From Vampirovibrionales bacterium (GTDB lineage Bacteria; Cyanobacteriota; Vampirovibrionia; Vampirovibrionales; JAGQHJ01), in contig JANWIO010000166.1 in NCBI GenBank assembly GCA_025449835.1, positions 18,967 to 82,966 of the forward strand: a stretch of 64,000 bases of DNA. The letters are read 5' to 3'. Each line of letters starts with the position of its first letter. The stretch's first letter is position 1. A program made the translations under genes and the position numbers. Under the pieces are notes generated by a model. That model worked only from the letters and a program-made list of their open reading frames with translations, was not told the DNA's origin and did not search any database. Shown here piece after piece: positions 1,492-20,180 of the stretch.

Positions 1492-2670
1492 GTGGGAAAA
1501 ACAGGATCATTGCTTTTAGAAATACTGCTCCTGGGATATATTACTTTTTATCTAAAGGTGCTCTGGGACACCCTTTTTGATTGGAAGTGTCTTCCAAAAC
1601 TAGAGAAAGTGAATCCTTTACCCCTTGATAACCTCCCACCTGTCTTGGATATTGTGATTCCGGCTCGCAATGAAGGAGAAAAAATTAGGCGATGTCTCAA
1701 AAGCCTCCAGAATCAGACTTATACGACTTTTCAAGTTTGGATGGTAAACGACCGATCCACCGATGAAACCGAGGCCATCATGAAAGAACTTGTCCAGGAA
1801 GATAGCCGATTTCATCTGATTCAAGGCATTGAACCTCCTCCAGGCTGGGTGGGCAAGGTAAATGCCATTGCCCAAGCCATCCCCTTTCTTTCAGCACCTT
1901 GGATTTTATTTTTAGATGCTGACACCTGGCTCCATCCTGAAACGCTCCAACGCTCCTTGACCTACACCCAACAGCACCAGGTTGAGTTTTTCACCTTAAT
2001 TCCTTATTTAGAGTGTGGTACCTTCTGGGAGCATGTCATTCTACCCGCCATGGTCTTTCTCATCAGCTTAGAGTTTCCCTCTCGGCAAGTAAACAACTCA
2101 CAAAAACCCAATATAGCCATTGCTAATGGCCAATATATTCTTATTCAACGCCCCATTTATGAGAAACTGGGGACGCATGCCACCGTTAAGGGGAGTGTAA
2201 TTGAGGATTTAGACTTGGCTCGCCTGGCAAAACGCCAAGGCATAAAACTGACCCTTGCAATAGGGGTTTCTTATTTTCATGTCCGCATGTATACCTCCTT
2301 TACAACCCTGCGAGAGGGTTGGACCAAAAATCTTTATCTCGGTAAACCGGATCTATCCCCATGGCTGACGGCCTTTAGAATAATGGGACTTTGGTTACTT
2401 GGTTTTTTACCCATTGTGACATTCTGCATCAGCCTGTTTTCTTCCTCTCATCATGCCCCCTTAATGTTTCTCAGTGCCTTGGCCTTGGGAACCCTGTTTT
2501 TGAGCATGGCCTTTAATCGCTGGGTTTACAAATGTTTTCCAGGATATGCCTTACTGCATCCCTTGGCCTTGTTTGTTATTGGATGTTTCTTGTATGAATC
2601 CAGACGTCTTGCACTTTCCCCACAAGGCATTCTCTGGAAAGGGCGTCACTATAAAACAAAACCTGAGTAA
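1492..2670 (+). CDS. Family 2 glycosyltransferase (GT-A fold) with a C-terminal multi-pass membrane region
   Basis: N-terminal DIVIPARNE and DAD motifs typical of GT2. The C-terminal half is hydrophobic with several predicted TM helices. Confidence 0.75.
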   Translation: MGKTGSLLLEILLLGYITFYLKVLWDTLFDWKCLPKLEKVNPLPLDNLPPVLDIVIPARNEGEKIRRCLKSLQNQTYTTFQVWMVNDRSTDETEAIMKELVQEDSRFHLIQGIEPPPGWVGKVNAIAQAIPFLSAPWILFLDADTWLHPETLQRSLTYTQQHQVEFFTLIPYLECGTFWEHVILPAMVFLISLEFPSRQVNNSQKPNIAIANGQYILIQRPIYEKLGTHATVKGSVIEDLDLARLAKRQGIKLTLAIGVSYFHVRMYTSFTTLREGWTKNLYLGKPDLSPWLTAFRIMGLWLLGFLPIVTFCISLFSSSHHAPLMFLSALALGTLFLSMAFNRWVYKCFPGYALLHPLALFVIGCFLYESRRLALSPQGILWKGRHYKTKPE

Positions 2671-2678
2671 TAAATGGT

Positions 2679-3980
2679 TTAGGTGTTTTTCGAAGAAAAA
2701 GAAGGCGCTCGGCGGTACACAAAAATTCCTCGCACCGGCTCCATTTCTAAAAATTTCTGAACCTGCCCCATGGTTTCTTTTGAAATTTCACAATCTTTGG
2801 GCAAAATTAAAACCCCCTTCATGGTTTTTAAATCTCGTGAGAGAACCATCCCTGGCATCATATCCCGGGCATTAATTTCCACCTCAATGGCATCCTCATT
2901 GGCATGATTTCCCTCATTAATGTATTGCGTAAATGCCGTTACAATAGCTGGGTCAAATTCTTTTAAGGATCGCTCTTTTAAAAACCGCAGCACTTTTTCA
3001 GGGGTTGTGGTGGAGAAAACCGCTCTTTCGTTCATTGCTTTATCGTAGGCATCTACAACGGCAATAATACGAGAGCCCAACGGAATTTGCTCTCCTCTAA
3101 GTTTATCCGGGTAACCGTTTCCATCAAACCGTTCGTGGTGATGACGCACAATGACGGCCACCTCATTTAAATTGGCCATCATGCCAATAATAGACTCGCC
3201 TAACATCACGTGGCGACGAAGCAGCTCTTGTTCTGCCGGTTTTAAGAATGCATCTCGCTTGAGTAAAATTTCAACAGGGACGCCAATTTTTCCAATATCG
3301 TGAAGGGTTGCAGCAATCTCAACCTCAATCAGCTCTTCTCCTGATCGCCCCAATTGTTGCGCAACCGCCTTACACAATGTAGCAACTCGTTTGGAATGGC
3401 TCCCAATAATGGGACTATGCAATTCTGAGAGTTTTGCCATCACCTGAATCGAGCTGAGAAAGCTTTTCTGTAGGGCCTTATTGAGTAGCGAAATCTGCTG
3501 TGTACGCTCTACAACTTTGTCTTCCAGATTTTTATTTAAATCTTTCAATTCTAAATTTTGTTCTTGAGTCAACGCTTCCAAACGTTTATTTTCAGAAACC
3601 AGCTCATAATATCCCACGGCTTGACGCAAGGTCAGCCGCATATCTTCATCATCCCAAGGTTTGGTTAAAAATCGATAAACCGCCCCTTCATTAATGGCGC
3701 TAATCGCCGCCTGGGTGTCTGCATAGCCCGTTAATAAAATCCGAACCGTATCGGGAGACAAACGTCGAACCTCCGCTAAAAGCTGGGTTCCTTCCATGCC
3801 AGGCATCCGTTGGTCAGAAACCACCACGGCATAGTCTTGTTGAGATATCATCTTTAAAGCCTCTTCAGGTGAAGTGGTCGTCTCTATCTCAAAACTTTCA
3901 TGATGCAACAGACGTTTGAGTGCATTAAGAATATTAATCTCATCATCAATGAATAAAATCCGTTGCATCGTCATCCGCAA
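2679..3980 (-). CDS. Response regulator with REC receiver plus HD-GYP c-di-GMP phosphodiesterase domain (RpfG-like)
   Basis: N-terminal ILFIDDEINILNALKRLL receiver. HD motif HDIGKIGVP and canonical HHERFDGNGYP motif. Last gene of a tightly packed minus-strand operon. Confidence 0.85.
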   Translation of the reverse strand: MRMTMQRILFIDDEINILNALKRLLHHESFEIETTTSPEEALKMISQQDYAVVVSDQRMPGMEGTQLLAEVRRLSPDTVRILLTGYADTQAAISAINEGAVYRFLTKPWDDEDMRLTLRQAVGYYELVSENKRLEALTQEQNLELKDLNKNLEDKVVERTQQISLLNKALQKSFLSSIQVMAKLSELHSPIIGSHSKRVATLCKAVAQQLGRSGEELIEVEIAATLHDIGKIGVPVEILLKRDAFLKPAEQELLRRHVMLGESIIGMMANLNEVAVIVRHHHERFDGNGYPDKLRGEQIPLGSRIIAVVDAYDKAMNERAVFSTTTPEKVLRFLKERSLKEFDPAIVTAFTQYINEGNHANEDAIEVEINARDMMPGMVLSRDLKTMKGVLILPKDCEISKETMGQVQKFLEMEPVRGIFVYRRAPSFSSKNT

Positions 3981-3983
3981 TTA

Positions 3984-5204
3984 TTATCCTATCCTAGAAG
4001 CCAAGGTTTCACCCAACCAAGCTTCTAAACGCTCCAGATGAACCGAATGGTTGATGGTTGTTTTGTTCTCATTTTGCCATTTTGCAAAATTTAAAACAGG
4101 CAAATGGGAGCGATAAATAAATTCTTGTAATGTAGGTGACACCACTTCATCTATAATAACACCGGCTAAGGCTTGTTCATTATTAATATCCAATGAGGTC
4201 ACCACATGGTATCCCAAACGCTGGAGTACCATGGAAACAAACCCTTCTTCAACAGAGTTTTTCAGTAAAACTGCAACCCGATTCGAAGGAATATCCTCCG
4301 TTTCTTTGACATTCAGCGGTTTCGCCACCAAATCAAAGAAGACTTCCGCCTTTTGAATTTCGGTCGGTAAATCCACCAACAATTGAAACACATGATCTGG
4401 CAGCACTTTTTCAACGGCCAGTAATTGCATAAAATCCATTTTAACGTGGGGATCACCACTCGCACCTACACGAGCAATTTTAGCCACATTATCGGCCACT
4501 TGAATCAAGTTCACCATCCGACCTTCATGGCCATCTTGACCTTTTAAAACCGGTTGTTTTTGGGGATGGGAAGAATGATGATCTGCAACCGCCTGAATAA
4601 ATATATGAGGCAATTTCCAATGCTCACATAACTTGCCACCCAAAGCGGCATGATCAATGCCAAACGCTTCCCGCTCCAAGGAAATCAAAGATTTCTCACC
4701 CACCTCCGCTTTTTTAAGCAATTCAATATATTGCTCTGTGAAATATTCCATAAAAATGGCCCGCCCGATGTCATGAATTAGCCCGGATGTATAAGCCTCC
4801 TCAGGGTTTGGAATTCGAAATAGCGGGCTCAGAATCCTTGAAGAGCAAGCTACCCCTAAAGAATGTCGCCAAAAATCTTCTCGATTAAAAGAAACGTCCG
4901 GCACATTTTTATGAAAAAATTCAAAAACCGAAATCCCCAATGACAGATTTTTAACCCCTTGAAACCCCAAAATCATTACCGCCTGAGAAATGGTACTGAC
5001 GCGATGGGAAAGCCCATAAAAAGCTGAATTGGACACACGAAGCACTTTGGTGGTTAAAGCCTGATCACCGGATATGGTTTGGGTAATATCACGAATATCC
5101 GTATTGGGATCATCTGCCAACTGAAATAATCGCCCCACAGAAGAGGGTAAAGGAGGCAATGATTGTATTTTAAACAACACATCCCGAATAACTTTATTTT
5201 CCAT
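3984..5204 (-). CDS. HDOD-domain signalling protein with a C-terminal receiver-like region
   Basis: HDOD signature (TKVLRVSNSAFYGLSHRVSTISQAVMILGFQGVKNLSL). Lies 3 bp upstream of the HD-GYP gene and overlaps the upstream REC gene by 11 nt. Confidence 0.8.
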   Translation of the reverse strand: MENKVIRDVLFKIQSLPPLPSSVGRLFQLADDPNTDIRDITQTISGDQALTTKVLRVSNSAFYGLSHRVSTISQAVMILGFQGVKNLSLGISVFEFFHKNVPDVSFNREDFWRHSLGVACSSRILSPLFRIPNPEEAYTSGLIHDIGRAIFMEYFTEQYIELLKKAEVGEKSLISLEREAFGIDHAALGGKLCEHWKLPHIFIQAVADHHSSHPQKQPVLKGQDGHEGRMVNLIQVADNVAKIARVGASGDPHVKMDFMQLLAVEKVLPDHVFQLLVDLPTEIQKAEVFFDLVAKPLNVKETEDIPSNRVAVLLKNSVEEGFVSMVLQRLGYHVVTSLDINNEQALAGVIIDEVVSPTLQEFIYRSHLPVLNFAKWQNENKTTINHSVHLERLEAWLGETLASRIG

Positions 5205-6006
5205 TCAAACAATCCTCCATCACAAGGATACACCCCCGTAGGGTATTCCGTTCTTGTAAAGACTTAATCCGTAATCGAAGCTTTTGCCCTTGAATTTGAA
5301 AAGGGGATATTTCTTGGACCAGGTTCCGATCCATACATTGCCTCACCATATTCACAACGTCAGTCGGAAAAATCTCCTGAATATCCATCCCAACTGCCAT
5401 GGGACAGAGGGCCACAAATCGGCTCCGAATCATTTCATTGGTAAAAACCACCATACCTTCTTCACTTACCCCAATAACAGGAACCGGTAGCTTTTCCAAA
5501 ATCTCCTGTGAAAGCTGCAACGCTTTAGTTCGTTCAGCCACAGCCTCCTCTAAACGATCATTTAAAGTACGCAGTTTTTCATTTTGAACTTGAATCTGCT
5601 CCATCAGCAAGCGGTTTTCCAACATCAAATCATAGTGGGCTAAGCATTGGTTTATAGAAACCTTCAATTCTTCGTCATTCCAGGGTTTGGTTAAAAACCG
5701 ATAAATTTCACCCTTGTTAATGGCATCCAAAATAACGCTGACGTCCGCATAACCTGAAAGAACAACCCGCACCGTATCTGGAGAAACTTCTTTGACTTTT
5801 TGAAGAAAGGCAGTCCCCATCATCTCTGGCATCATTTGATCAGAGAGTACCAGGTGAACTGGCTGTTTTTCAATCAATGCAATCCCTTCTAAACCACTAT
5901 TTGCCGTAAGTAAGTTATACTCTTCCTTACGAAGTAAGCGTTTGAGGGCGTTTAAGATGTTGATTTCATCATCAACACAGAGAACGGTTTTTCGATCGGT
6001 CTTCAT
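5194..6006 (-). CDS. Response-regulator receiver protein with coiled-coil and PAS-like C-terminal region
   Basis: VLCVDDEINILNALKRLL receiver with conserved Asp and Lys positions. ATGA start/stop overlap with the upstream histidine kinase. Confidence 0.75.
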   Translation of the reverse strand: MKTDRKTVLCVDDEINILNALKRLLRKEEYNLLTANSGLEGIALIEKQPVHLVLSDQMMPEMMGTAFLQKVKEVSPDTVRVVLSGYADVSVILDAINKGEIYRFLTKPWNDEELKVSINQCLAHYDLMLENRLLMEQIQVQNEKLRTLNDRLEEAVAERTKALQLSQEILEKLPVPVIGVSEEGMVVFTNEMIRSRFVALCPMAVGMDIQEIFPTDVVNMVRQCMDRNLVQEISPFQIQGQKLRLRIKSLQERNTLRGCILVMEDCLNGK

Positions 6007-6980
6007 AATGGCTCATTGGTTTCAATTGGTAATTTGATGCTAAACGTTGTACCTTCACCCACCTTACTTTCCACATCAATGGTTCCGTGATGTTTTTGAA
6101 TAATCCCGTAAGAAATTGAAAGGCCCAGCCCAGTTCCGGTTCCCACAGGCTTGGTGGTATAAAAGGGGTTAAATATGTGGGACATATGTTTTTCCGGAAT
6201 ACCCACACCAGTATCTGAAATACGAATGACAATATGGGTATCTGTTGCTTCCGTCTCTATGATAATTTCCCCCTTTTCAGGAATGGCTTGCGCTGCATTC
6301 ACCAAAAGATTCATCAAAACCTGATTTAGCTGCCCCGGATAACACAGAATAGAAGGGACTTCTCCAAGATTTGTCGTCACTTGACATTTGTATTTCAACT
6401 CATTCCACACCATTTTTAAGGTATCTTGTATCCCATCATTCACATTGGCTTCTTTTAACTCAGACTCATCCAGACGGGCAAAGCTTTTTAAGTTTTGAAC
6501 AATGTCTTTAACCCGATGTAACCCTTGTTGAGACTCTAAAATCAAGGCATCAACATCCCCCATAGCATAATTAAGATCTTCCTCCTCACAAACTTTATGA
6601 ATCGCCTCTAACAGAGCTTGAATTTCATCTGCATGGCCTTCTTGATAGTGGGTTACCAACGTATCATACTGGGCAATAAGATCTTTAAAAGTGGTGACAT
6701 ATTCCATCAAGGTGCCCAAGTTCGACATGACAAATCCCACGGGATTATTAATTTCATGGGCAACCCCCGCAGCCAGTTGTCCTAACGAGGCCATTTTTTC
6801 TGAGTGAACGAGTTGAGCTTGATTTTCTTTCAGTTTCTCGTGGGCATGATGCAATTCAGAGGTTTTTTCTTCCAACAACGATTCGGCCCGTTGCCGTAAA
6901 GCTCTTTCCCATTGAAGAGCCTCTTCTAAGGATTCAAATGTTTGAGATTTCTCTACCAAATGCTTGGCCATCGAACGCAC
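6003..6980 (-). CDS. Soluble sensor histidine kinase (coiled coil, HisKA, HATPase_c)
   Basis: H-box AAGVAHEINNPVG, then N-box, G1 and G2 (GTGLGLSIS). No TM segments. First gene of the HK/REC/HDOD/HD-GYP operon. Confidence 0.85.
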   Translation of the reverse strand: MRSMAKHLVEKSQTFESLEEALQWERALRQRAESLLEEKTSELHHAHEKLKENQAQLVHSEKMASLGQLAAGVAHEINNPVGFVMSNLGTLMEYVTTFKDLIAQYDTLVTHYQEGHADEIQALLEAIHKVCEEEDLNYAMGDVDALILESQQGLHRVKDIVQNLKSFARLDESELKEANVNDGIQDTLKMVWNELKYKCQVTTNLGEVPSILCYPGQLNQVLMNLLVNAAQAIPEKGEIIIETEATDTHIVIRISDTGVGIPEKHMSHIFNPFYTTKPVGTGTGLGLSISYGIIQKHHGTIDVESKVGEGTTFSIKLPIETNEPL

Positions 6981-7268
6981 TCCAATGCTTAACGCATCCT
7001 AAAATAAAATTGTGCCCAGGGTGAGTCAGTCACCTGCCAAATCTCAAATGAGTCACAACTTCTGTAGAGGTTATCGTCATTTGTTGAATTGACTTTAAAA
7101 ATTTGAAAAAAGAAGGTAACATCCCATTTTTTGGTACTCACAAAACGATTCAAAAATAATTCTTTTTACCTTTTAAGCTTAACAGGCAGCCTTGTTCAAC
7201 AAAGAAGCCCTCCTCTGATAAGAAGGGCTTCATATGAATTTAAGGATAAGCTTCGTAAACTACGCTGC

Positions 7269-7556
7269 TTACTTTACTTTGTTGCTGCTGGTTTTGGTGG
7301 TTTTGGTGGTCATCATGTTTTTAGCCAATTTGGTATGATGACTGGATTTAGCAGCCATTTTGGTGCTGTGATGATGTTTAGCAGCTATCTTATGATGATG
7401 GCTGGTATGTTTGGTTGCCATTTTATGATGGGTTGCAGCAGCATGGTGTTTTGGGGTAGCTGCTTTGTGGTGCGTTGTTGCTGATGTAGCAGCAAAAGCC
7501 CCAGCAGTGGTCAACAAGAAAAGGCTCACGATACCTAATGATAATGCTTTTTTCAT
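7269..7556 (-). CDS. Small secreted histidine-rich protein (about 17 His in a ~72-aa mature chain); putative periplasmic metal-binding protein
   Basis: Start ATG at 7556 with an AAGGAG SD 10 nt upstream. Signal peptide MKKALSLGIVSLFLLTTAGAFAA. Repeated HHK / HHH motifs. Intrinsic terminator just downstream. The overlapping plus-strand ORF 7131-7484 is its antisense shadow. Confidence 0.6.
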   Translation of the reverse strand: MKKALSLGIVSLFLLTTAGAFAATSATTHHKAATPKHHAAATHHKMATKHTSHHHKIAAKHHHSTKMAAKSSHHTKLAKNMMTTKTTKTSSNKVK

Positions 7557-8550: not shown

Positions 8551-9702
8551 TCAATGTAAAACTTCTGGCACCGGCATCTGTTGAAGTCGTTGATGAAAGG
8601 CTTTCAGTGCTTCAATGGTTCGTTCCGCAGCTTTTCCATCTCCATAAGGGTTCAATGCCTGGGCCATTTCTTGATATGCAGCAGGACTATCTAAAAGGCG
8701 TTGTGTTTCCTCTAGAATTCGGTCTCGGTGAGGGCCGACAAGCTTAACCGTTCCCATTTCAACAGCTTCAGGGCGTTCTGTTTCATCTCGAAGCACCAAA
8801 ACCGGTTTACAAATAGAAGGTGCCTCCTCCTGGATCCCCCCCGAATCGGTTAAAACGAGATACGCTCGGCTTAAAAGCTGACAAAAAGGTGCATAATCCA
8901 TGGGTTCAATCAGATGAATCCGCTCCACACCAGCAAGGATTTCAAAAACAACGGAACGGACATTGGGGTTGAGATGAACGGGAAGAACCATCTCAACATC
9001 GGGGTTATTCATCACAATGGTTTTTAAAGCATCACAAATTTCAACCATGGGAGCCCCAAAGTTCTCACGCCGATGCACTGTCACCAAGATCATACGATTA
9101 TCCGGGTCCAAAGCCATGGGAAACGCTTCATCCTTGGTTTTGGCCAAGGTGTAATGCAAAGCATCAATTACCGTATTGCCGGTTAAAATAATGGCCGACT
9201 CCGACACACCCATCTCGCGCAAGTTGTTTTGTGAGCGTTGAGTGGGCGCAAAAAACAGGGTTGCCACACTATCCGTCACAACCCGATTAATCTCTTCTGG
9301 AAAAGGGTAGTATTTATCAAAGGTCCGGAGACCCGCTTCTACATGCCCTACCGGAATTTTGGCATAAAATGCAGCAAGGCTTGCCGCCATGGTTGTTGTT
9401 GTGTCGCCATGTACCAGCACAATATCTGGCTTGTATTGGTTTAGCACATCTCGCATGGCTAAAAGTACTTTACTGGTGAGATCATAGAGATCTTGGTTTG
9501 GCCGCATCAGATCCAAGTCCACATCTGGCTGAATATCAAACAGATTCAAAACCTGATCCAGCATCTGACGGTGTTGCGCCGTCACACACAAAATCGATTC
9601 AAAAGTAGCCTCATGCGCTTTTAAAGCCATCACCACCGGCGCCATCTTAATGGCCTCTGGACGAGTCCCAAAAACAGTCATCACTTTTAGCCGGTTTGAC
9701 AT
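8551..9702 (-). CDS. wecB: UDP-N-acetylglucosamine 2-epimerase (non-hydrolysing)
   Basis: MTVFGTRPEAIKMAPV N-terminus and full-length similarity to WecB/MnaA. Confidence 0.9.
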   Translation of the reverse strand: MSNRLKVMTVFGTRPEAIKMAPVVMALKAHEATFESILCVTAQHRQMLDQVLNLFDIQPDVDLDLMRPNQDLYDLTSKVLLAMRDVLNQYKPDIVLVHGDTTTTMAASLAAFYAKIPVGHVEAGLRTFDKYYPFPEEINRVVTDSVATLFFAPTQRSQNNLREMGVSESAIILTGNTVIDALHYTLAKTKDEAFPMALDPDNRMILVTVHRRENFGAPMVEICDALKTIVMNNPDVEMVLPVHLNPNVRSVVFEILAGVERIHLIEPMDYAPFCQLLSRAYLVLTDSGGIQEEAPSICKPVLVLRDETERPEAVEMGTVKLVGPHRDRILEETQRLLDSPAAYQEMAQALNPYGDGKAAERTIEALKAFHQRLQQMPVPEVLH

Positions 9703-12832: not shown

Positions 12833-14218
12833 CTATACTTTTTCCAAAGGCTTGTTAGATGCACTGGATCCTTTAGAAGAAGATTTTCCAGAGGCTTTTG
12901 CCGTTGTTGTTGGAACTGCCGGCACCCTTCCCATACTAATGTAGGTAAACCCAAGATCCATCATTCTTCCAGGCTTATAAAGATTTCGGCCATCAATAAT
13001 CAGTCGGCATTTTGTTGATTCTTTAAGATGCTTAAAGTTAATATGCTCAAATTCGCTCCACTCCGTTAAAATCAGGATCGCATCAGCATCCTTGGCAGCT
13101 TCATAAGCATTTTCACAGTACTCTAAATGGGGAAAGATATTCCGAGTCACTTCCATGGCCAAGGGATCAAAGGCTTTAATTTTGGCTCCTCGATTTTGCA
13201 GACTCCGAATAATGGTTTGGCTCGGTGCATCACGCATATCATCGGTATTCGGGCGATATGCTAACCCCCAAAGCCCCAAGGTTTTGCCTTCCAAGTTGCC
13301 GCCTAACGCCTGTTCAATTTTTTCAATGAACAGCAACCGTTGATACCGGTTAATCGTTTCAACCGATTTGAGAATATCCAGGTTTAAACTGTATTGATCG
13401 GCAATGGCCACCAATGAGGCAATATCTTTTGGGAAAAAGATGCCACCATAGCCCACGCCTGCATTTAAGTATTCTGCATTAATCCGGCGATCCAGCCCAA
13501 TCCCTTTTGCCACTTTAATAATATCGGCACCGGTTTTTTCACAAATTTGGGCAATGGAATTAATAAAGGAAATCTTCATGGCCAAATATGCATTAGAGGC
13601 GTGCTTAATCAGCTCCGCACTATTAATATCAGTAATTAAAAGCGGCGCATTTAAAGGTTGATAGACTTGCACCAGCATATCAATGGCTTTTTGGCTGCTT
13701 GCACCAATCACCACCCGATCTGGCTTCATAAAATCCTGAACGGCATACCCTTCTCTTAAAAATTGAGGCACTGCCGCCACATCAAATTCGATGCCCGGCT
13801 TGATATCTTCTCGAAGCTTTTGCTCCAGCCATTCCCCAGTCCGGATAGGCAGTGTGCTTTTTTCAACAATCAAAGTATAGCCTGTTAAGGCATGAGAAAT
13901 ATCATGAATGGCATCTTCCAACGGTTTCATATCTGGTTTGCCGTTAGGTAAAGGAGGCGTTCCAACACAGATAAAAACGATTTCTGCATCTTTCACAACA
14001 GCCTTATTGTCTGAAACAAAATGCAGCCGCCCATCTTCTAAATTGGTTCTTAAAAGCGGTTCTAATTGGGCTTCAAAAAAGGGCAGTTCCCCACGATTCA
14101 GTTTGTCAATCCGCTTCTTGTCCATATCCGAGCATGTCACTTCATGTCCTAGCTCAGCCAAACATGTCCCGGTGACTGTACCCACATAACCTGCACCAAT
14201 AACACCAATTTTCATAAC
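12833..14218 (-). CDS. UDP-glucose/GDP-mannose dehydrogenase family enzyme (Ugd or WecC-like) with a Ser/Lys-rich C-terminal tail
   Basis: MKIGVIGAGYVGTVTG Rossmann N-terminus. Start placed at the internal ATG 14218, preceded by an AGGAG SD. Divergent from flagellin 1. Confidence 0.85.
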   Translation of the reverse strand, partial: VMKIGVIGAGYVGTVTGTCLAELGHEVTCSDMDKKRIDKLNRGELPFFEAQLEPLLRTNLEDGRLHFVSDNKAVVKDAEIVFICVGTPPLPNGKPDMKPLEDAIHDISHALTGYTLIVEKSTLPIRTGEWLEQKLREDIKPGIEFDVAAVPQFLREGYAVQDFMKPDRVVIGASSQKAIDMLVQVYQPLNAPLLITDINSAELIKHASNAYLAMKISFINSIAQICEKTGADIIKVAKGIGLDRRINAEYLNAGVGYGGIFFPKDIASLVAIADQYSLNLDILKSVETINRYQRLLFIEKIEQALGGNLEGKTLGLWGLAYRPNTDDMRDAPSQTIIRSLQNRGAKIKAFDPLAMEVTRNIFPHLEYCENAYEAAKDADAILILTEWSEFEHINFKHLKESTKCRLIIDGRNLYKPGRMMDLGFTYISMGRVPAVPTTTAKASGKSSSKGSSASNKPLEKV

Positions 14219-14492
14219 CGTCCTCTCCTTATTTAAAAGACAAAGAGCCCCAAACACGACTTCGAAAAGAGATTAAGCAAAAAAGTCTGGATTGCTTTTT
14301 ACAAAGACGAATGCTCCTCTTCGTATCCGGCAAACCCTTATTACCCTCTGACAAATAACCCAAATAGATTTGCCTATGCACACTGTAGCATAAATGAACC
14401 CGATGAGGGAAGGGGCGACCCTCTGCACCATCTGGAGGAGTTTTACTGAATTTGCTTAAAGATTTCCCAAAGGATCCCGATATCCCCCTTAA

Positions 14493-14659: not shown

Positions 14660-15529
14660 GTGCCGATAGTTGTAAATACCAATATTGCATCTTTAATTGC
14701 ACAACAAAATTTATCAGTGAATACCAATAACGTTAATGGTTCACTGGAAAAATTATCCTCCGGCTATAAAATCAATCATGCCTCTGACGATCCAGCAGGA
14801 TTAAGCATCTCAGAAACACTTAATAGCCAGATTTCCGGGATCCAAACAGCTTTGCAAAACGCCCAAGAGGGAAACAGCATTTTGCAAGTTGCAGAAGGAA
14901 CTTTAAGTGTTATCGGTGATAACCTCCAACGGATTCGAGAGCTAACCGTTGAAGCTGCTAACGATACCAACAGTAGCACTCAGCGGGCAGCCCTTGCCAG
15001 TGAAATTAAGGCTCGCTTAAATGACAACCAACGCATGGTTCAAGCGGCACAATTTAATGGCATTAATCTGCTAACGGGATCAGCCGTCAGTGCTCGCCTT
15101 CAAATTGGACCCGATGCAAGCATTGCCGACAATACCATTAACATTGCCAGTGTCCTCGCCACGGCCACAGCAACAGCCATTGGTATTCTGGGAGCTGCCA
15201 CTTCCACAAAATGGGGAACTATCGGCAGCATTAACATTACCAATGGTAGCGTTGCCAGAAGCTTCTTAGGTGAGATAGATAAAGCTATTCAAGCCATCTC
15301 TTCAAGACGCACATTGATTGGTGCTTACCAAAACCAGTTAAGCAGCGCCATCTCCAATTTACAGTTGGGTTCACAGAACCTGACCTCCTCAGAATCCAAT
15401 ATCCGAGATGTGGATGTTGCTGCAGAAAGCGCTAAATTAACCCAATCTCAAATCTTACAACAGGCATCCGTTAGTATCCTGACACAGGCCAATCAAACCC
15501 CCTCAATGGTTCTTAAACTACTACAGTAA
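14660..15529 (+). CDS. fliC: Flagellin (copy 1 of 6, 289 aa, GTG start), the most divergent paralog
   Basis: Conserved flagellin D0/D1 termini (MPIVVNTNIASL... and ...LQQASVSILTQANQTP..LKLLQ). AAGGAG SD 9 nt upstream. Confidence 0.9.
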   Translation: MPIVVNTNIASLIAQQNLSVNTNNVNGSLEKLSSGYKINHASDDPAGLSISETLNSQISGIQTALQNAQEGNSILQVAEGTLSVIGDNLQRIRELTVEAANDTNSSTQRAALASEIKARLNDNQRMVQAAQFNGINLLTGSAVSARLQIGPDASIADNTINIASVLATATATAIGILGAATSTKWGTIGSINITNGSVARSFLGEIDKAIQAISSRRTLIGAYQNQLSSAISNLQLGSQNLTSSESNIRDVDVAAESAKLTQSQILQQASVSILTQANQTPSMVLKLLQ

Positions 15530-15634
15530 CCCTTACATAACCATAAGGAAAGCCCCATGAATACAACCCCCTAAGTTATACCCGCTCCCTCCCATGAACC
15601 TGGTCCATGCCCCAAATCATCACTGAACCAGACT

Positions 15635-16075
15635 CATGTGAGGACCTCCAAAGTTTTCACATGACCCCAGTATCTGCCCACATTAAACCTCAACATTAAC
15701 CCTTCGTGGATGGATACCCAACTCAATAACACCTGTAAAACGCTTCTGTGCATTAGCGTGGCGACCATCAAATTAAAAATAAAGATGCTGTCGACACCAG
15801 CTTCATGACTCAGATACCACTTTACAGGCTCAAAGAACCTCTTTCATGACTGAAAAGGATGAAAGCCTGGGCGCTAAAACGCTCCCGGGATGGGGTTCCC
15901 TACAATAAAATACCGAAACCCTTATATGTGCCTGATTCAGGGTGCCTTGGGCATCATTTTTTGAATCAGCCCCATGTGAGGATTCTTCGGACCTCTCACA
16001 TGACCCGATGTAAAACCGAGTTCGTGCCACTTGGCATGGATGTTTAAACCCAAACCGTTTGAACCGGCTTTACAT
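15635..16075 (+). repeat. Structured intergenic region with two copies of a CATGTGAGGA...CACATGACCC hairpin motif and further inverted repeats
   Basis: Copy A 15635-15667 and copy B 15973-16006 share 10-nt flanks that form 7-8 bp stems. Adjacent inverted repeats CTGATTCA/TGAATCAG (15933-15970) and GATGTAAA/TTTACATC (16007-16075). Confidence 0.5.
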
Positions 16076-16271
16076 CAAATTCATCAAGAATAAACCCCAT
16101 GTCTTATTTGGCATGAATGGATTAGAAATAAAGTTTTGTCTCTATTTCTACCCAGATCAAGCCTTTATAAGGCATTTTGAAAGAACCAACCTAACTCATA
16201 ATACACAACACGTTTGGAAAAACGCCACTTGACAAGGATGGAAAGTGAGAAAAAGCAAAAGGAGTTGAACT

Positions 16272-17114
16272 ATGCCACTCGTTATTAATACAAACGTAAA
16301 TTCATTAAATGCCCAACGGCTCTTGTCACAAAACACGATGAATCTGTCTAAAGATTTAGAGCAATTGGCCTCTGGTTATCGGATTAACCATGCCAGCGAT
16401 GATGCCGCAGGATTACAGATTTCTGAAAATTTTACTGCCCAAATCCGAGGCACTGAACAAGCCATTAACAATGCACAAGATGGCCTTAACCTCTTGTCTG
16501 TTGCAGAAGGTACCTTGAGCGTTGTGGCAAACAACCTGCAACGGATCCGGGAGCTCGCTGTGGAAGCTGCCAACGATGTGAACGGTTCAACCCAAAGATC
16601 TGCTATTAAGCAAGAAATTGATGCCCGAATCGCCGATATCAACCGAATGACCAAAGCAACACAATTTAACGGTGTCAATGTTCTTCAAAAGATCCCTAAT
16701 GTCAGCCTTAGACTACAGGTGGGTGCCAATGGTGTTGCATCACAAGACACCATCAATATCGCTTCTGCACTGGGAAGTGCAACCGCTACGGGACTTGGCC
16801 TTACAGCCACAGCCAATATGATTTCATCTAACAGTAATGCTCGGGCATTTTTGGCCAATGTAGATAGTGCTATGAATAACCTATCCAGCAGAAGAGCGGT
16901 AATCGGTTCATTCCAAAACCGATTACAAAGCGCTATTGATAACTTACAAATTGAAGATCAAAACTTCCAAGCTTCTGAATCTCAAATTAGAGACGTGAAT
17001 GTGGCCAAAGTTACGGCCGATCTTTCTAAAAACCAGATTTTACAACAAGCCTCTGTCAGCATCTTGGCGCAAGCAAATCAATTGCCGGCTCTGGCACTTA
17101 AATTAATCGGGTAA
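16272..17114 (+). CDS. fliC: Flagellin (copy 2 of 6, 280 aa)
   Basis: Flagellin N- and C-terminal helices. About 93% aa identity to copy 3 with many synonymous nucleotide differences. Confidence 0.9.
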   Translation: MPLVINTNVNSLNAQRLLSQNTMNLSKDLEQLASGYRINHASDDAAGLQISENFTAQIRGTEQAINNAQDGLNLLSVAEGTLSVVANNLQRIRELAVEAANDVNGSTQRSAIKQEIDARIADINRMTKATQFNGVNVLQKIPNVSLRLQVGANGVASQDTINIASALGSATATGLGLTATANMISSNSNARAFLANVDSAMNNLSSRRAVIGSFQNRLQSAIDNLQIEDQNFQASESQIRDVNVAKVTADLSKNQILQQASVSILAQANQLPALALKLIG

Positions 17115-17137
17115 GCCTGTTGTTTACCCATTTTTTA
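17109..17137 (+). terminator. Probable intrinsic terminator of flagellin 2
   Basis: GGGTAA-gcctgttgt-TTACCC followed by ATTTTTT; overlaps the stop codon. Confidence 0.55.
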
Positions 17138-17284
17138 TACCCAATCACTTACATAACTTAGAAAGGAGAAACAGATAAGACCTAAAATCACCTCATTTAC
17201 ATTACAGTACGTTACTTGTGTTTAACAAAAATACCTCATTATTAACAAGGATGGAAATAATAAGAAAGCAAAAGGAGTTGTACT

Positions 17285-18127
17285 ATGCCACTCGTTATTA
17301 ATACCAATGTCAATTCATTAAACGCTCAGCGACTCTTGTCGCAAAACACCATGAATCTCTCCAAAGACCTAGAGCAATTAGCCTCTGGTTATCGTATTAA
17401 CCATGCCGGTGATGACGCCGCAGGTCTCCAGATTTCTGAAAATTTTACTGCCCAAATCAAAGGGACAGAGCAAGCCATTAACAACGCACAGGATGGCCTT
17501 AACCTCTTGTCTGTTGCTGAAGGCACCCTAAGTGTTGTTCAGGATAACCTCCAGCGGATCCGCGAGCTAACTGTACAAGCGGCTAACGATGTTAACGGCT
17601 CCTCTCAAAGAACCGCTATTAAGCAAGAAATTGATGCCCGAATCGCCGACATCAACCGAATGACCAAAGCCACACAGTTTAACGGTGTCAATATTCTTAA
17701 AAGCATTGCAAATGTGAGTTTTCGCCTGCAAGTTGGTGCCAATGGTGTTGCATCCCAGGATACCATCAACATTGCATCAGCCTTGGGTAGTGCAACAGCC
17801 ACGGGGCTTGGATTAAAGGCAACGACCAATATGATTTCATCCAACAGCAATGCCCGTGCTTTTTTAGCCAATGTGGATAGTGCCATGAATAACCTATCCA
17901 GCAGAAGAGCGGTTATCGGTTCATTCCAAAACCGACTGCAAAGTGCCGTGAGTAACTTACAAATTGCAGATCAAAACTTCCAGGCCTCTGAATCTCAGAT
18001 CAGAGACGTTAATGTGGCCAAAGTTACTGCCGATCTCTCTAAAAACCAGATTCTGCAACAAGCTTCTGTCAGTATCTTGGCACAAGCAAACCAATTGCCG
18101 GCTTTGGCACTCAAACTTATCGGCTAA
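17285..18127 (+). CDS. fliC: Flagellin (copy 3 of 6, 280 aa)
   Basis: Flagellin termini. Leader shares the AAGGATGGAAA...AAGGAG motif with copy 2. Confidence 0.9.
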   Translation: MPLVINTNVNSLNAQRLLSQNTMNLSKDLEQLASGYRINHAGDDAAGLQISENFTAQIKGTEQAINNAQDGLNLLSVAEGTLSVVQDNLQRIRELTVQAANDVNGSSQRTAIKQEIDARIADINRMTKATQFNGVNILKSIANVSFRLQVGANGVASQDTINIASALGSATATGLGLKATTNMISSNSNARAFLANVDSAMNNLSSRRAVIGSFQNRLQSAVSNLQIADQNFQASESQIRDVNVAKVTADLSKNQILQQASVSILAQANQLPALALKLIG

Positions 18128-18317
18128 TTATCGAGCTCATTTGGCTTAAAACGCCTGTCGATAAATTTATTCTCACCTCATCAATGAGAAAAAAACAACA
18201 AAGGAGAATCTCCCTAATGACTTAAAACAATAATCCATCTGATTGAAACCTCTCACGTGTGGTGCAATCAGCCACTTACTTAAATTTGAATCAGGAAATA
18301 ACAGTAGGAGAAAAACT

Positions 18318-19157
18318 ATGCCACTGGTTATTAATACGAATACTAACTCATTAAACGCACAGCGGCTCTTGTCACAAAACACCATGAATCTCTCCAAAGA
18401 CTTAGAGCAGTTGGCCTCCGGTTATCGAATCAATCACGCATCGGACGACGCGGCAGGGCTACAAATCTCCCAGAATTTGCAGTCTCAATACCGTGGTATT
18501 GAGCAGGCCGTTCGAAACTCACAAGATGGACTTAACCTCTTGTCTGTTGCTGAAGGCACCTTGAGTGTTGTTCAAGATAACCTCCAGCGGATACGAGAAC
18601 TCGCTGTACAAGCAGCCAACGATGTTAACGGTACATCTCAAAGAACCGCTATTAAACAAGAGATAGATGCTCGAATTGCTGACATTAATCGAATGACCAA
18701 AGCCACGCAATTTAACGGTGTTAATATCCTTCAAAGCATCAAAGGCAGCTTCAATCTTGAAGTGGGTGCCAATGGTGCAGCATCCACAAATACCATTAAC
18801 ATTGCTTCAGCACTAGGTAGTGCAACAGCCACAGGGCTTGGACTAAAGGCAACCACCAATATGATTGCCGCCAACAGTAATGCTAGAGCCTTTTTAGGAA
18901 ATGTTGATTCAGCCATTGCAAATGTGTCAACAAGACGTGCAACCATTGGTTCATTCCAAAACCGGCTGCAAAGTGCTATTGCAAACTTACAAATTGCAGA
19001 TCAAAACTTCCAAGCTTCTGCGTCTCAAATTAGAGATGTGAATGTGGCTGCAGTCACTGCGGATCTGTCTCGAAATCAGATTCTGCAGCAGGCTTCCGTC
19101 AGCATTCTGTCTCAAGCAAATCAACTACCGGCCTTAGCACTCAAACTTATCGGATAA
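18318..19157 (+). CDS. fliC: Flagellin (copy 4 of 6, 279 aa); start corrected to ATG 18318
   Basis: MPLVINTN start preceded by a TAGGAG SD. The extra 25 codons of track ORF 18243 lack an RBS and break the paralog alignment. Confidence 0.9.
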   Translation: MPLVINTNTNSLNAQRLLSQNTMNLSKDLEQLASGYRINHASDDAAGLQISQNLQSQYRGIEQAVRNSQDGLNLLSVAEGTLSVVQDNLQRIRELAVQAANDVNGTSQRTAIKQEIDARIADINRMTKATQFNGVNILQSIKGSFNLEVGANGAASTNTINIASALGSATATGLGLKATTNMIAANSNARAFLGNVDSAIANVSTRRATIGSFQNRLQSAIANLQIADQNFQASASQIRDVNVAAVTADLSRNQILQQASVSILSQANQLPALALKLIG

Positions 19158-19315
19158 AAATATACACAAACAATCTTTAATAACAAAATAACCTGAAAGG
19201 AGGCTGATTATCCCGGAAAAATAGAACTCTTAGATTATCTAAATCCACACTTTACAAAACACAAACACTTTTTTTTGGAAGGAAAAGTGAAAAAACAACA
19301 TAAAGGAGTTAAATT

Positions 19316-20155
19316 ATGCCACTTGTTATTAATACAAACGTAAACTCGTTAAATGCACAGCGGCTCTTGTCACAAAACACCATGAATCTCTCCAAAGACT
19401 TAGAGCAGTTGGCCTCCGGTTATCGAATCAACCACGCATCTGACGACGCAGCCGGGCTACAAATCTCCCAGAATCTGCAGTCTCAATACCGTGGTGTCGA
19501 GCAGGCCGTTCGAAACTCACAAGACGGGTTAAACCTCTTGTCTGTTGCTGAAGGTACCCTGAGTGTCGTTCAAGATAACCTCCAGCGGATCAGAGAGCTT
19601 GCTGTACAGGCGGCCAACGATGTGAACGGTACATCTCAAAGAACTGCTATTAAGCAAGAGATGGATGCCCGGATTGCTGACATCAACCGAATGACCAAAG
19701 CAACGCAATTTAACGGTGTTAATATCCTTCAAAGCATCAAAGGAAGCTTTAACATTCAAGTTGGTGCCAATGGTGCAGCATCCACAAACTCCATTAACAT
19801 TGCGTCTGCACTGGGTAGCGCAACAGCCACAGGCCTTGGCTTAAAGGCAACCGCAAATATGATTGCCGCCAACAGTAATGCCAGATCCTTTTTATCCAAT
19901 ATCGATACAGCCATTGCAAACGTCTCAACAAGACGTGCAACCATTGGTTCGTTTCAAAACCGGCTACAAAGTGCTATTGCAAACCTACAAATTGCTGACC
20001 AAAACTACCAAGCTTCTGCATCTCAAATTCGAGATGTGAACGTGGCTTCAGTCACTGCGGATCTGTCTCGAAACCAGATTCTGCAGCAGGCTTCCGTCAG
20101 CATTCTGTCTCAAGCAAATCAACTACCGGCCTTAGCACTCAAACTCATTGGTTAA
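19316..20155 (+). CDS. fliC: Flagellin (copy 5 of 6, 279 aa)
   Basis: Near-identical to copy 4, including a ~78-nt identical tract near the 5' end. Confidence 0.9.
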   Translation: MPLVINTNVNSLNAQRLLSQNTMNLSKDLEQLASGYRINHASDDAAGLQISQNLQSQYRGVEQAVRNSQDGLNLLSVAEGTLSVVQDNLQRIRELAVQAANDVNGTSQRTAIKQEMDARIADINRMTKATQFNGVNILQSIKGSFNIQVGANGAASTNSINIASALGSATATGLGLKATANMIAANSNARSFLSNIDTAIANVSTRRATIGSFQNRLQSAIANLQIADQNYQASASQIRDVNVASVTADLSRNQILQQASVSILSQANQLPALALKLIG

Positions 20156-20180
20156 TCATCTATAACCAGTGCTTAAGCCT

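What the first reader, a model, noticed from the sequence alone, without database searches (positions are those of the whole stretch)
2679..6980. Four-gene signalling operon (histidine kinase, REC-PAS, HDOD, REC-HD-GYP) 7.7 kb from the flagellin array
The genes are translationally coupled (ATGA overlap, an 11-nt overlap, a 3-bp gap). The operon combines a soluble coiled-coil histidine kinase, two receiver proteins, an HDOD protein and a canonical HD-GYP (HHERFDGNGYP) phosphodiesterase. In Xanthomonas RpfC/RpfG and Pseudomonas the HD-GYP/HDOD combination controls motility through c-di-GMP. Its position next to six flagellins suggests flagellar control.
Basis: partly seen in the sequence, partly recalled or inferred. 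Interest (0 to 1): 0.55.

Follow-up and report, generated by a model that had tools for sequence, protein, structure and literature searches.

The report
Conserved four-gene c-di-GMP signalling operon
This is a real, tightly packed four-gene operon in which a sensor-less histidine kinase probably controls a c-di-GMP-degrading HD-GYP enzyme; the same cassette recurs in other uncultured bacteria, and its only link to flagella here is a flagellar-type (sigma-28-like) promoter motif, not its distance from the flagellin genes.

Summary
Four minus-strand genes (6980→2679) are joined by an ATGA overlap, an 11-nt overlap and a 3–9-nt gap. They encode a soluble, sensor-less histidine kinase, a REC–long helix–divergent PAS protein, an HDOD protein and a REC–HD-GYP protein with every catalytic motif intact.

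New findings:
- The HDOD protein carries an unannotated C-terminal receiver-like fold that lacks the phospho-acceptor pocket. It keeps the H…HD…H…HH residues that align with those of the di-iron HDOD structure 3HC1.
- The gene order HK–REC-PAS–HDOD–REC-HD-GYP recurs in 7 of 10 independent related contigs. The kinase input varies: none, PAS, HAMP-PAS, GAF, or an adjacent H-NOX gene.
- The two receivers are paralogues with an identical α1 helix, which suggests one kinase feeds both.
- No H-NOX or FIST (NosP-type) sensor gene is in the window.

Proximity to the flagellins is not evidence of flagellar control: seven unrelated ORFs intervene and no related cassette sits near flagellar genes. However, the best sigma-28 consensus match in the 64 kb lies in the operon's promoter region.

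Verdict: a new variant of the RpfG/Hno/NosR-type two-component c-di-GMP modules. Interest is moderate to low. The flagellar link is plausible but unproven.

The parts
7204..7231 (-). Intrinsic terminator of the upstream small secreted-protein gene. It marks the upstream boundary of the operon's transcription unit.
   Evidence: 12-bp stem with 6 G-C pairs and a 4-nt loop, followed by TTTGTT. The sequence was read.
7071..7097 (-). Sigma-28 (FliA)-like promoter motif, TAAAGTCAATTCAACAAATGACGATAA, about 100 nt upstream of the kinase ATG.
   Evidence: one of only 2 matches in 64 kb to TAAA-N15-GCCGATAA at ≤1 mismatch (expected 0.34). It is intergenic and on the correct strand. Searches show a motif with the same spacing upstream of flagellin 1. 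It is not conserved in related loci.
6003..6980 (-). Soluble, sensor-less histidine kinase (325 aa from GTG 6980; 322 aa from ATG 6971). H-box AHEINNP at 6741-6761 (phospho-His75). N-box 6285-6311, G1 6198-6215, F 6150-6173, G2 6117-6137.
   Evidence: The catalytic core is 55-63% identical to cassette kinases whose inputs are PAS, HAMP-PAS, GAF or an adjacent H-NOX gene. There is no transmembrane segment. tblastn with relatives' full-length kinases found no match to their sensor domains anywhere in the window.
5194..6006 (-). REC–long helix–divergent PAS response regulator (270 aa). Asp pocket D12/D13 (5965-5979), phospho-Asp56 (within 5827-5847), S84, K107. Single long helix at residues 111-171. 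PAS-like fold at residues 177-265.
   Evidence: The AlphaFold model has pLDDT 91.5. All 120 homologues listed are 43-63% identical, nearly all over the full length.
3984..5204 (-). HDOD protein with a C-terminal pseudo-receiver (406 aa). The HDOD helical domain spans about residues 1-290, with putative di-metal ligands H114, H144-D145, H185 and H208-H209. A receiver-like β/α domain spans residues 309-402. It keeps D352 but lacks the DD, T/S and K residues of a phosphorylatable receiver.
2679..3980 (-). REC–HD-GYP response regulator of the RpfG family (433 aa from TTG 3980; 431 aa from ATG 3974). Phospho-Asp56 (within 3801-3821). HD at 3288-3305. RHHHERFDGNGYP at 3108-3146. D311 (431-aa numbering) within 3042-3059. 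An unassigned, conserved C-terminal stretch of about 70 aa lies at 2679-2900.
   Evidence: (NCBIfam NF053512, 450.7 bits against a cut-off of 400).

Best explanation
This is a self-contained, branched two-component module that sets the local c-di-GMP level.

Shown by sequence:
- The four genes form one transcription unit with overlapping or nearly abutting reading frames.
- The unit is bounded upstream by the neighbour's terminator and downstream by a convergent gene.

Inferred mechanism:
1. The cytoplasmic kinase has no input domain. It autophosphorylates on His75. Its H-E-x-x-N motif suggests it is also a phosphatase.
2. It transfers the phosphoryl group to Asp56 of two paralogous receiver proteins whose α1 helices are identical.
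3. Phosphorylation of the REC–HD-GYP protein switches on hydrolysis of c-di-GMP. The product is most likely pGpG, because the third-metal Glu of PmGH is absent.
4. The REC–PAS protein acts as a competing phosphate acceptor and/or pairs with the phosphodiesterase through the homologous long helix that follows both receivers.
5. The HDOD–pseudo-receiver protein is a non-phosphorylatable, probably di-metal-binding accessory. It docks on the kinase or the phosphodiesterase.
6. The input signal must come in trans, from a partner sensor encoded elsewhere (relatives use H-NOX), through the PAS domain, or through the HDOD metal site.
7. A sigma-28-like promoter suggests the operon is expressed with late flagellar genes. 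That would keep c-di-GMP low in motile cells, as E. coli PdeH does (recalled from my own knowledge, not checked here).
For: - Operon anatomy.
- Intact catalytic and phospho-acceptor residues in the kinase, both receivers and the HD-GYP domain.
- RpfG-family members with the full residue set are phosphorylation-dependent c-di-GMP phosphodiesterases (bioRxiv 10.1101/2021.11.05.467447).
- The two REC+linker modules are 47% identical over 165 residues without gaps, and DDEINILNALKRLL is identical in both. The family consensus sequences share the same α1.
- The order HK–REC-PAS–HDOD–REC-HD-GYP is kept in L001, L163, L165, L166/L167, L169, L170 and L171.
- Kinase cores are 55-63% identical while the inputs vary. 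Two relatives have H-NOX immediately upstream.
- HDOD fold, conserved ligands and the receiver-like C-terminus.
- Sigma-28 consensus match in the promoter region.
- Branched kinase-to-several-receivers logic with an HD-GYP receiver has precedent in the Shewanella Hno network (PMC6335343, PMC8846402) and in Burkholderia NosRPK (PMC12570481).
Against: - There is no biochemical evidence. Phosphotransfer, substrate and product are all inferred.
- No sensor was found: no H-NOX homologue by six-frame search and no FIST or HNOB domain in the larger ORFs (Pfam). The input is therefore unknown.
- The HDOD role is speculative. Studied HDOD proteins lacked c-di-GMP hydrolysis (PMC4114195). For SadB, c-di-GMP binding was reported in P. 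fluorescens (PMC6543031) but not seen in P. aeruginosa (PMC12075610).
- The sigma-28 motif is absent upstream of the cassette in relatives. It was noticed after looking at the sequence. No fliA gene is in the window. Flagellins 2-6 lack the motif.
- The closest solved HD-GYP by sequence is a cGAMP-specific enzyme (5Z7C).
Confidence: 0.6

Rival explanations
1. The operon is the output half of a gas or redox (NO/O2) sensing pathway of the H-NOX/NosP type. The kinase is silent or constitutive on its own and is gated by a haem protein encoded elsewhere in the genome. The physiological signal would then be NO or oxygen rather than anything flagellar.
For: - The kinase is 57.5% identical over 332 residues to the equally short kinase that follows H-NOX in L162, and 63% identical over 292 residues to the kinase core that follows H-NOX in L163.
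- The REC-HD-GYP protein passes NCBIfam's NosR-family cut-off.
- NosK of B. pseudomallei is likewise sensor-less and carries the same HEINN motif (PMC12570481).
Against: - There is no H-NOX homologue in 64 kb (tblastn, best E 0.38) and no FIST or HNOB domain in the larger ORFs.
- Most cassette relatives use PAS, HAMP or GAF inputs or none, not H-NOX. Gas sensing is therefore one option among several for this cassette.
Confidence: 0.25
2. The operon has no specific connection with flagella. It is one of many c-di-GMP modules in this genome, it controls something else (for example exopolysaccharide or biofilm), and the sigma-28-like motif is a chance match.
For: - Seven unrelated ORFs separate the operon from the flagellins.
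- The cassette is never near flagellar genes in relatives.
- The motif is not conserved in relatives.
- Another match of equal quality lies on the wrong strand between flagellins 3 and 4.
- Polysaccharide genes flank the operon: a GT2 gene at 1492-2670 and WecB/WecC-like genes.
- A second HD-GYP/GGDEF pair lies in the same window.
Against: - A ≤1-mismatch match to the a-priori consensus is expected 0.34 times in 128 kb of strand. Landing in the roughly 220-nt promoter region on the right strand has a chance of about 6e-4 (my arithmetic).
- Flagellin 1 carries a motif with the same spacing.
Confidence: 0.4
3. The HD-GYP enzyme degrades 3'3'-cGAMP (V-cGAP-like) rather than, or as well as, c-di-GMP.
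For: The best PDB sequence match for the catalytic domain is V. cholerae V-cGAP3 (5Z7C, E 7.8e-29). Like V-cGAP3 and PA4781, it lacks the third-metal Glu.
Against: - Scores against the c-di-GMP enzymes PmGH (1.8e-26) and PA4781 are similar.
- The Pfam scans of the window's larger ORFs showed no cGAMP synthase-type (CD-NTase) domain, whereas a GGDEF protein is present.
- Characterised RpfG-family enzymes act on c-di-GMP.
Confidence: 0.08

Closest known systems
Shewanella oneidensis / Vibrio cholerae Hno network (HnoX H-NOX, HnoK and HnoS kinases, HnoB REC-EAL, HnoC, HnoD REC-HD-GYP)
   Same: - A sensor-less soluble kinase feeds several receiver proteins, one of which is REC-HD-GYP.
- Two relatives of this cassette have H-NOX directly upstream (L162, L163).
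- Several relatives carry an HTH_17-REC gene nearby. I recall this as HnoC-like; that resemblance was not tested.
- Some relatives carry two kinases of the family (L163, L170), as with HnoK and HnoS.
   Different: - HnoD's HD-GYP is degenerate and works by inhibiting the EAL enzyme HnoB (PMC6335343). Here the HD-GYP is canonical and no EAL protein is present.
- The second receiver carries only a PAS domain.
- An HDOD–pseudo-receiver gene is inserted in the cassette.
- No H-NOX gene is in this window.
Burkholderia pseudomallei NosR–NosP–NosK (PMC12570481); NCBIfam NF053512 'NosR family'
   Same: - The REC-HD-GYP protein scores above the family cut-off (450.7 against 400 bits, over model positions 1-416 of 422).
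- The kinase has no sensor domain and carries the HEINN phosphatase motif.
   Different: - NosR's motif is degenerate (HG…GTP); here it is HD…GYP.
- No FIST/NosP gene is present here.
- The REC-PAS and HDOD genes are extra.
   Same: REC–HD-GYP architecture under two-component control.
   Different: - RpfC is a membrane hybrid kinase working with the DSF synthase RpfF. The window scans found neither a hybrid kinase nor an enoyl-CoA-hydratase-type protein.
- X. campestris RpfG has little phosphodiesterase activity and acts by protein contacts.
HDOD proteins GsmR (Xanthomonas, REC-HDOD), SadB (Pseudomonas, YbaK-HDOD) and GSU HDOD 3HC1
   Same: - Five His and one Asp that align with conserved residues of 3HC1, whose pocket holds two iron ions.
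- GsmR and SadB influence motility and biofilm.
   Different: - The domain order is HDOD followed by a degenerate receiver, the reverse of GsmR.
- SadB lacks most of the His ligands and acts as a proteolysis adaptor.
- No HDOD protein has been described inside a kinase/HD-GYP cassette in the papers I could search.
E. coli PdeH (YhjH), a sigma-28-dependent c-di-GMP phosphodiesterase (recalled from my own knowledge, not checked with the tools)
   Same: A c-di-GMP phosphodiesterase placed under a late flagellar promoter, so that motile cells keep c-di-GMP low. The sigma-28-like motif here suggests the same logic.
   Different: PdeH is a stand-alone EAL enzyme without two-component control. The promoter here is only a sequence match.

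Membership tests
RpfG family (REC–HD-GYP response regulators) | N-terminal receiver with an intact acidic pocket, phospho-Asp, T/S and K | tested here: met
   D10, D11, D54, T82 and K105 (431-aa numbering) are invariant in the alignment of 36 homologues. Response_reg 1.9e-23.
RpfG family (REC–HD-GYP response regulators) | Full HD-GYP residue set: H, HD, H, HHE, GYP, D and the c-di-GMP-binding Lys | tested here: met
   H193, H225-D226, K229, H255, H279-H280-E281, G287-Y288-P289 and D311 align with PmGH 4MCW and V-cGAP3 and are invariant or nearly so in the family alignment.
RpfG family (REC–HD-GYP response regulators) | Third-metal acidic residue (PmGH E185). It marks the trinuclear, GMP-producing subclass and does not define the family. 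| tested here: not met
   The aligned residue is Ile (SPIIGSH against DPETQNH). This places the protein in the binuclear subclass, like PA4781 and V-cGAP3.
RpfG family (REC–HD-GYP response regulators) | Phosphorylation-dependent c-di-GMP hydrolysis | not testable with these tools
   Needs an enzyme assay.
NCBIfam NF053512, NosR-family response regulator / NosRPK system | Whole-protein score at or above the curated cut-off | tested here: met
   450.7 bits against a cut-off of 400, covering model positions 1-416 of 422.
NCBIfam NF053512, NosR-family response regulator / NosRPK system | Adjacent NosP (FIST) haem sensor gene | tested here: not met
   No FIST domain in the ORFs scanned across the window, which covered nearly all ORFs of at least 110 aa (Pfam). 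Smaller ORFs next to the operon have no Pfam hit.
H-NOX / Hno signalling network | H-NOX (HNOB) gene next to the kinase | tested here: not met
   tblastn with two H-NOX proteins taken from relatives found nothing better than E 0.38 in the window. H-NOX is present in relatives L162 and L163.
H-NOX / Hno signalling network | Sensor-less kinase homologous to H-NOX-associated kinases | tested here: met
   57.5% identity over 332 residues to the L162 kinase and 63% over 292 residues to the L163 kinase.
HisKA-type histidine kinase | H-box His plus N, G1, F and G2 boxes | tested here: met
   AHEINNP, NLLVNAAQA, DTGVGI, FNPFYTTK and GTGLGLS. HATPase_c 4.7e-28. HisKA scores 25.0 bits, slightly below the 26.9 cut-off, but the H-box aligns with ZraS 9JFJ.
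HDOD domain (PF08668) | Profile match and HDOD fold | tested here: met
   [not shown]
Receiver (CheY-like) domain, for the HDOD protein's C-terminus | Flavodoxin-like (βα)5 fold | tested here: met
   [not shown]
Receiver (CheY-like) domain, for the HDOD protein's C-terminus | Phospho-acceptor pocket (DD after β1, D after β3, T/S after β4, K after β5) | tested here: not met
   K314-N315 follow β1, and no conserved T/S or K is present. Only D352 is kept. There is no Response_reg hit even at E ≤ 10. It is therefore a pseudo-receiver.
PAS domain, for the 270-aa receiver protein | Profile match at Pfam's threshold, or a PAS fold | tested here: inconclusive
   The window protein scores 20.7 bits against a cut-off of 22.6. 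Of 46 homologues, 20 hit PAS and 8 hit PAS_4. The AlphaFold secondary structure at residues 177-265 is PAS-like. Foldseek hits were dominated by the REC domain, so the fold was not confirmed independently.
Sigma-28 (FliA) flagellar regulon | Promoter matching TAAA-N15-GCCGATAA at a suitable distance upstream | tested here: met
   11 of 12 specified bases with exact spacing at 7071-7097, about 100 nt before the ATG.
Sigma-28 (FliA) flagellar regulon | Conservation of the promoter in orthologous loci, and FliA-dependent transcription | tested here: not met
   No such motif lies upstream of the cassette in L001 or L162-L168. The dependence of transcription on FliA cannot be tested here, and no fliA gene is in the window.
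Xanthomonas Rpf (DSF) system | RpfC hybrid sensor kinase and RpfF synthase encoded with RpfG | tested here: not met
   The operon's kinase has no receiver or HPt domain. The Pfam scans of the window's larger ORFs found no enoyl-CoA hydratase-type domain.

The most novel reading that the evidence does not exclude
The HDOD–pseudo-receiver protein is the missing functional piece of the cassette. One version: it is a di-iron protein that senses O2, NO, redox state or iron through the conserved five-His/one-Asp pocket, and uses its degenerate receiver domain to dock on the kinase's DHp domain or on the HD-GYP receiver. It would then be the auxiliary sensor for kinases that have no input domain, the role H-NOX and NosP play elsewhere. 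Alternative version: it is the pGpG-hydrolysing partner of a binuclear HD-GYP enzyme that stops at pGpG. Either version would give the HDOD domain, whose mechanism is still undefined, a first defined role inside a conserved two-component cassette.
Probability: 0.13. Interest if true: 0.6.

Novelty: new variant of a known kind. Interest (0 to 1): 0.35.

Why it matters
Each domain here is well known, and REC–HD-GYP regulators number in the thousands, so the operon alone would not surprise a specialist.

Three points are worth keeping:
1. A fixed gene order, HK–REC-PAS–HDOD–REC-HD-GYP, recurs in assemblies of uncultured bacteria while the kinase's input domain is swapped (none, PAS, HAMP-PAS, GAF, or adjacent H-NOX). 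Homologues of its components carry names from several phyla. This looks like a portable output module for c-di-GMP control.
2. It places an HDOD protein, with residues aligned to those of a di-iron HDOD structure plus a previously unannotated pseudo-receiver, in a defined genetic context. That offers a tractable system for working out what HDOD domains do.
3. A sigma-28-type promoter would make this a two-component-gated analogue of the flagellar-regulon phosphodiesterase idea.

All three points can be tested with standard biochemistry.

Tried and rejected
- **Genome-contig scan with the single HDOD protein** found no relatives. Only L002, L046 and L078 matched beyond the HDOD domain.
Its best hit was only 44% identical, so it mainly showed that distant REC-HD-GYP genes lack the HDOD neighbour.
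- **Source record:** the window's own HD-GYP protein is not in the contig index. All 14 window proteins looked up are singletons at 90% identity with no names. The organism could not be identified.
- **Pfam at E ≤ 10** gave nothing for the pseudo-receiver, for the C-terminal 79 residues of the HD-GYP protein, or for the neighbouring small ORFs.
- **Sensor and partner genes:** tblastn found no H-NOX homologue and no homologue of the relatives' HTH_17-REC protein in the window. The relatives' full-length kinases matched only the catalytic core, so no degraded sensor lies upstream of the kinase.
- **Sigma-54 promoter:** no better than chance (72 matches against 65 expected), and none upstream of the operon.
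- **Rfam:** no riboswitch or leader in the 5' region and nothing in the whole window.
- **Sigma-70 scan:** at chance level.
- **Rejected: flagellar control inferred from position.** No synteny with flagellar genes in any related cassette.
- **Rejected: membership of the Rpf/DSF system.** No hybrid kinase and no RpfF-type protein were found.

Full report
**1. The observation**

Searches list four minus-strand ORFs at exactly the reported coordinates. In order of transcription they are 6003-6980 (325 aa), 5194-6006 (270 aa), 3984-5204 (406 aa) and 2679-3980 (433 aa). I read the junctions directly.
- The first stop and second start share ATGA.
- The second and third genes overlap by 11 nt, with GGAGGA 8 nt before the ATG.
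- The fourth gene starts 3 nt after the third gene's stop if TTG 3980 is used, or 9 nt after it if ATG 3974 is used.

The proteins held in the public collection start at ATG 6971 (kinase, 322 aa) and ATG 3974 (HD-GYP protein, 431 aa).

Upstream, a strong intrinsic terminator (7231-7204) ends a small secreted-protein gene and leaves about 220 nt of promoter region. Downstream, a GT2 glycosyltransferase gene converges with an 8-bp gap. No terminator-like site inside the operon stands out from chance (7 found against 5.4 expected). The operon structure is therefore as described.

**2. The four proteins**

*Kinase.* It has HATPase_c (4.7e-28) and a HisKA H-box, AHEINNP, that aligns with ZraS. The N, G1, F and G2 boxes are all present. 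H-E-I-N-N is the phosphatase-type motif also noted for Burkholderia NosK (PMC12570481). About 70 residues precede the phospho-His. No transmembrane-like segment is present. NCBIfam's best hit covers only the C-terminal half of a 574-residue model.

*Second protein.* It has an intact receiver (D12, D13, D56, S84, K107), then a single long helix (residues 111-171), then a PAS-like α/β domain (residues 177-265) in a confident AlphaFold model (pLDDT 91.5). The Pfam PAS hit is just under threshold here, but 20 of 46 homologues reach it.

*Fourth protein.* It is a REC–HD-GYP regulator with every receiver and catalytic residue intact. It lacks the acidic residue that binds a third metal in PmGH (Ile in its place), so it belongs to the binuclear subclass. 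It passes NCBIfam's 'NosR family' cut-off (450.7 against 400 bits). It ends in a conserved stretch of about 70 residues with no Pfam assignment.

**3. Relatives and gene context**

The nearest non-self homologue of the HD-GYP protein is 57% identical. Every window protein tested is a singleton at 90% identity on one 83-kb NCBI contig. The lineage has been sampled once and I could not name it.

I examined ten independent contigs carrying close homologues. The order kinase–REC-PAS–HDOD–REC-HD-GYP is kept in seven of them: L001, L163, L165, L166/L167, L169, L170 and L171 (confirmed by tblastn).
- Kinase cores are 55-63% identical to the window's, but the N-termini differ. L165 has none (as here), L166 and L171 have PAS, L001 has HAMP-PAS, L170 has GAF/PilJ-like, and L163 has a weak GAF-like region with an H-NOX gene immediately upstream.
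- L162 has H-NOX, a short kinase (57.5% identical over 332 residues), a receiver protein and REC-HD-GYP, but no HDOD.
- L164 has the HD-GYP gene alone. L168 has the HDOD gene alone.

This is a heuristic, not a direct check.

Some betaproteobacterial loci (L034, L077, L080) hold the same four components in another order. More distant REC-HD-GYP genes (30-44% identity) usually lack the HDOD neighbour.

A full HMMER scan of 1.84 billion representatives shows HDOD is huge (55,677 hits). Only about half of the top 150, roughly 75 clusters at 50% identity, match over the whole ~400 residues including the pseudo-receiver.

**4. How it most likely works**

The two receiver modules, with their following helices, are 47% identical over 165 residues without a gap. 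Their α1 helices (DDEINILNALKRLL) are identical, and the two family consensus sequences share this helix. From established knowledge of two-component systems, α1 is the main determinant of kinase–regulator specificity. I therefore infer that one kinase phosphorylates both proteins.

RpfG-family proteins with the full residue set are phosphorylation-dependent c-di-GMP phosphodiesterases (bioRxiv 10.1101/2021.11.05.467447). The output is thus most likely c-di-GMP hydrolysis, probably to pGpG.

The REC-PAS protein may compete for phosphoryl groups or pair with the enzyme through the homologous helix. The HDOD–pseudo-receiver protein is probably a metal-binding accessory. These last two roles are speculative.

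The input is unknown. No H-NOX homologue is present by six-frame search, and no FIST or HNOB domain appears in the larger ORFs of the 64 kb.

**5. The flagellar claim**

Position alone does not support it.
- Seven unrelated ORFs on both strands intervene.
- The window contains a second c-di-GMP pair, TPR-GAF-HD-GYP at 37316-39961 and REC-GGDEF at 40052-41674.
- No related cassette lies near a flagellin. By contrast, 5 of 80 generic short-HDOD loci do.
- No other flagellar genes accompany the six flagellins.

While reading the promoter region I found TAAAGTCAATTCAACAAATGACGATAA at 7071-7097 on the operon's strand. Against the classical sigma-28 consensus TAAA-N15-GCCGATAA at ≤1 mismatch, the window has two matches (0.34 expected; 2 of 100 shuffles reach two). 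The other lies between flagellins 3 and 4 but on the wrong strand. A motif with the same spacing, TAAA-N15-CCCGATAT, lies about 180 nt upstream of flagellin 1.

From, the chance of such a match falling in this ~220-nt region on the right strand is about 6e-4. However, the test was made after seeing the sequence. The motif is not found upstream of the cassette in relatives. Flagellins 2-6 lack it. No fliA gene is in the window. I treat sigma-28 control as a lead with roughly one chance in three of being real.

No sigma-54 site, riboswitch or other Rfam element is present.

**6. Comparison with known systems**

Functionally the operon resembles the Shewanella/Vibrio Hno network, in which sensor-less kinases branch to several receivers including a REC-HD-GYP (PMC6335343, PMC8846402). 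It also resembles Burkholderia NosRPK (PMC12570481). It differs in four ways:
- the HD-GYP is catalytic rather than degenerate;
- there is no EAL partner;
- there is no adjacent haem sensor;
- REC-PAS and HDOD–pseudo-receiver genes are present.

It is a member of the RpfG family by architecture and residues. It is not part of an Rpf/DSF system.

No paper in the searchable library mentions HDOD together with H-NOX. Of the five papers that mention HDOD, HD-GYP, histidine kinase and operon together, I read passages of two, and neither describes this cassette. Its conservation therefore appears undescribed, within the limits of that library.

**7. Verdict**

The domain interpretation is correct and can be extended. 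The mechanism is an ordinary two-component-controlled c-di-GMP phosphodiesterase embedded in a conserved four-gene cassette of modest novelty. The flagellar inference from proximity is unsupported, but it is partly rescued by a promoter motif.

Interest is 0.35. The most novel reading still open is that the di-metal HDOD–pseudo-receiver protein is the cassette's sensor or its pGpG-processing partner.

Noticed in passing
window 7269-7556 (-): A small (95 aa) secreted protein with a clear signal peptide, followed by a His/Lys/Ala/Thr-rich repetitive region (HHK, HH and KHH motifs). It has no Pfam hit and its own strong terminator. It could be a periplasmic metal-binding peptide. It sits immediately upstream of the operon but is separated from it by the terminator.
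   Followed up: partly
window 37316-39961 (-) and 40052-41674 (+): A second c-di-GMP module in the same window: a TPR–GAF–HD-GYP protein (881 aa) transcribed divergently from a REC-like–GGDEF protein (540 aa). This genome is evidently rich in c-di-GMP genes.
   Followed up: partly
window 14660-21341 (+): Six tandem flagellin genes with no other flagellar genes in the 64 kb. Flagellins 2-5 are 83-95% identical to each other, flagellin 6 is 74-83% identical to them, and flagellin 1 only 53-56%. Only flagellin 1 has a sigma-28-like motif (14457-14483). The listed ORF for flagellin 4 (TTG 18243) is over-extended; the conserved start MPLVINTN is at about 18315.
   Followed up: partly
window 18117-18143 (-): A 1-mismatch match to the sigma-28 consensus (CAAA-N15-GCCGATAA) lies in the intergenic region between flagellins 3 and 4, but on the strand opposite to the flagellin genes. 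It could be an antisense promoter or a chance match.
   Followed up: no
window 2679-2900 (-), C-terminus of the REC-HD-GYP protein: A conserved stretch of about 70 residues after the HD-GYP domain (EVEI…D…PGMVLSRDL…G.L.LPK…GIFVYR, with a dozen invariant or near-invariant positions in 36 homologues). It has no Pfam assignment, though NCBIfam's NosR model covers it.
   Followed up: partly
window 29824-33233 (+): A 939-aa STAND-type NTPase (AAA_22/NACHT/nSTAND6) with C-terminal TPR repeats. Its reading frame overlaps by 4 nt a 197-aa phosphoribosyltransferase-domain protein. The pair might be a defence or signalling system.
   Followed up: no
window 1492-2670 (+), 8551-9702 (-), 12833-14257 (-): Polysaccharide genes flank the operon. 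A processive-type GT2 glycosyltransferase converges on it with an 8-bp gap. WecB-like UDP-GlcNAc 2-epimerase and WecC-like UDP-sugar dehydrogenase genes lie between the operon and the flagellins. Exopolysaccharide synthesis is a common c-di-GMP target, so these are alternative candidate outputs.
   Followed up: no
L163 2016-6014; L170 1398-5236: Two related cassettes each carry two kinases with the same catalytic core (56-63% identical to the window's) but different inputs: CHASE plus an H-NOX-linked GAF kinase in L163, and an unassigned input plus PilJ/GAF in L170. This echoes the HnoK/HnoS two-kinase arrangement.
   Followed up: partly
L001 1-15, L162 4218-4823, L165 5621-6223, L170 86-664: An HTH_17–REC response regulator of about 200 aa (50-59% identical among three of the loci) is encoded just upstream of several related cassettes. 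It has no counterpart in the window.
   Followed up: partly
whole window: All 14 window proteins looked up are single-member clusters at 90% identity, each recorded on one NCBI contig of 83,261 bp. The organism is represented by a single assembly. Its taxon could not be determined with the tools left.
   Followed up: partly
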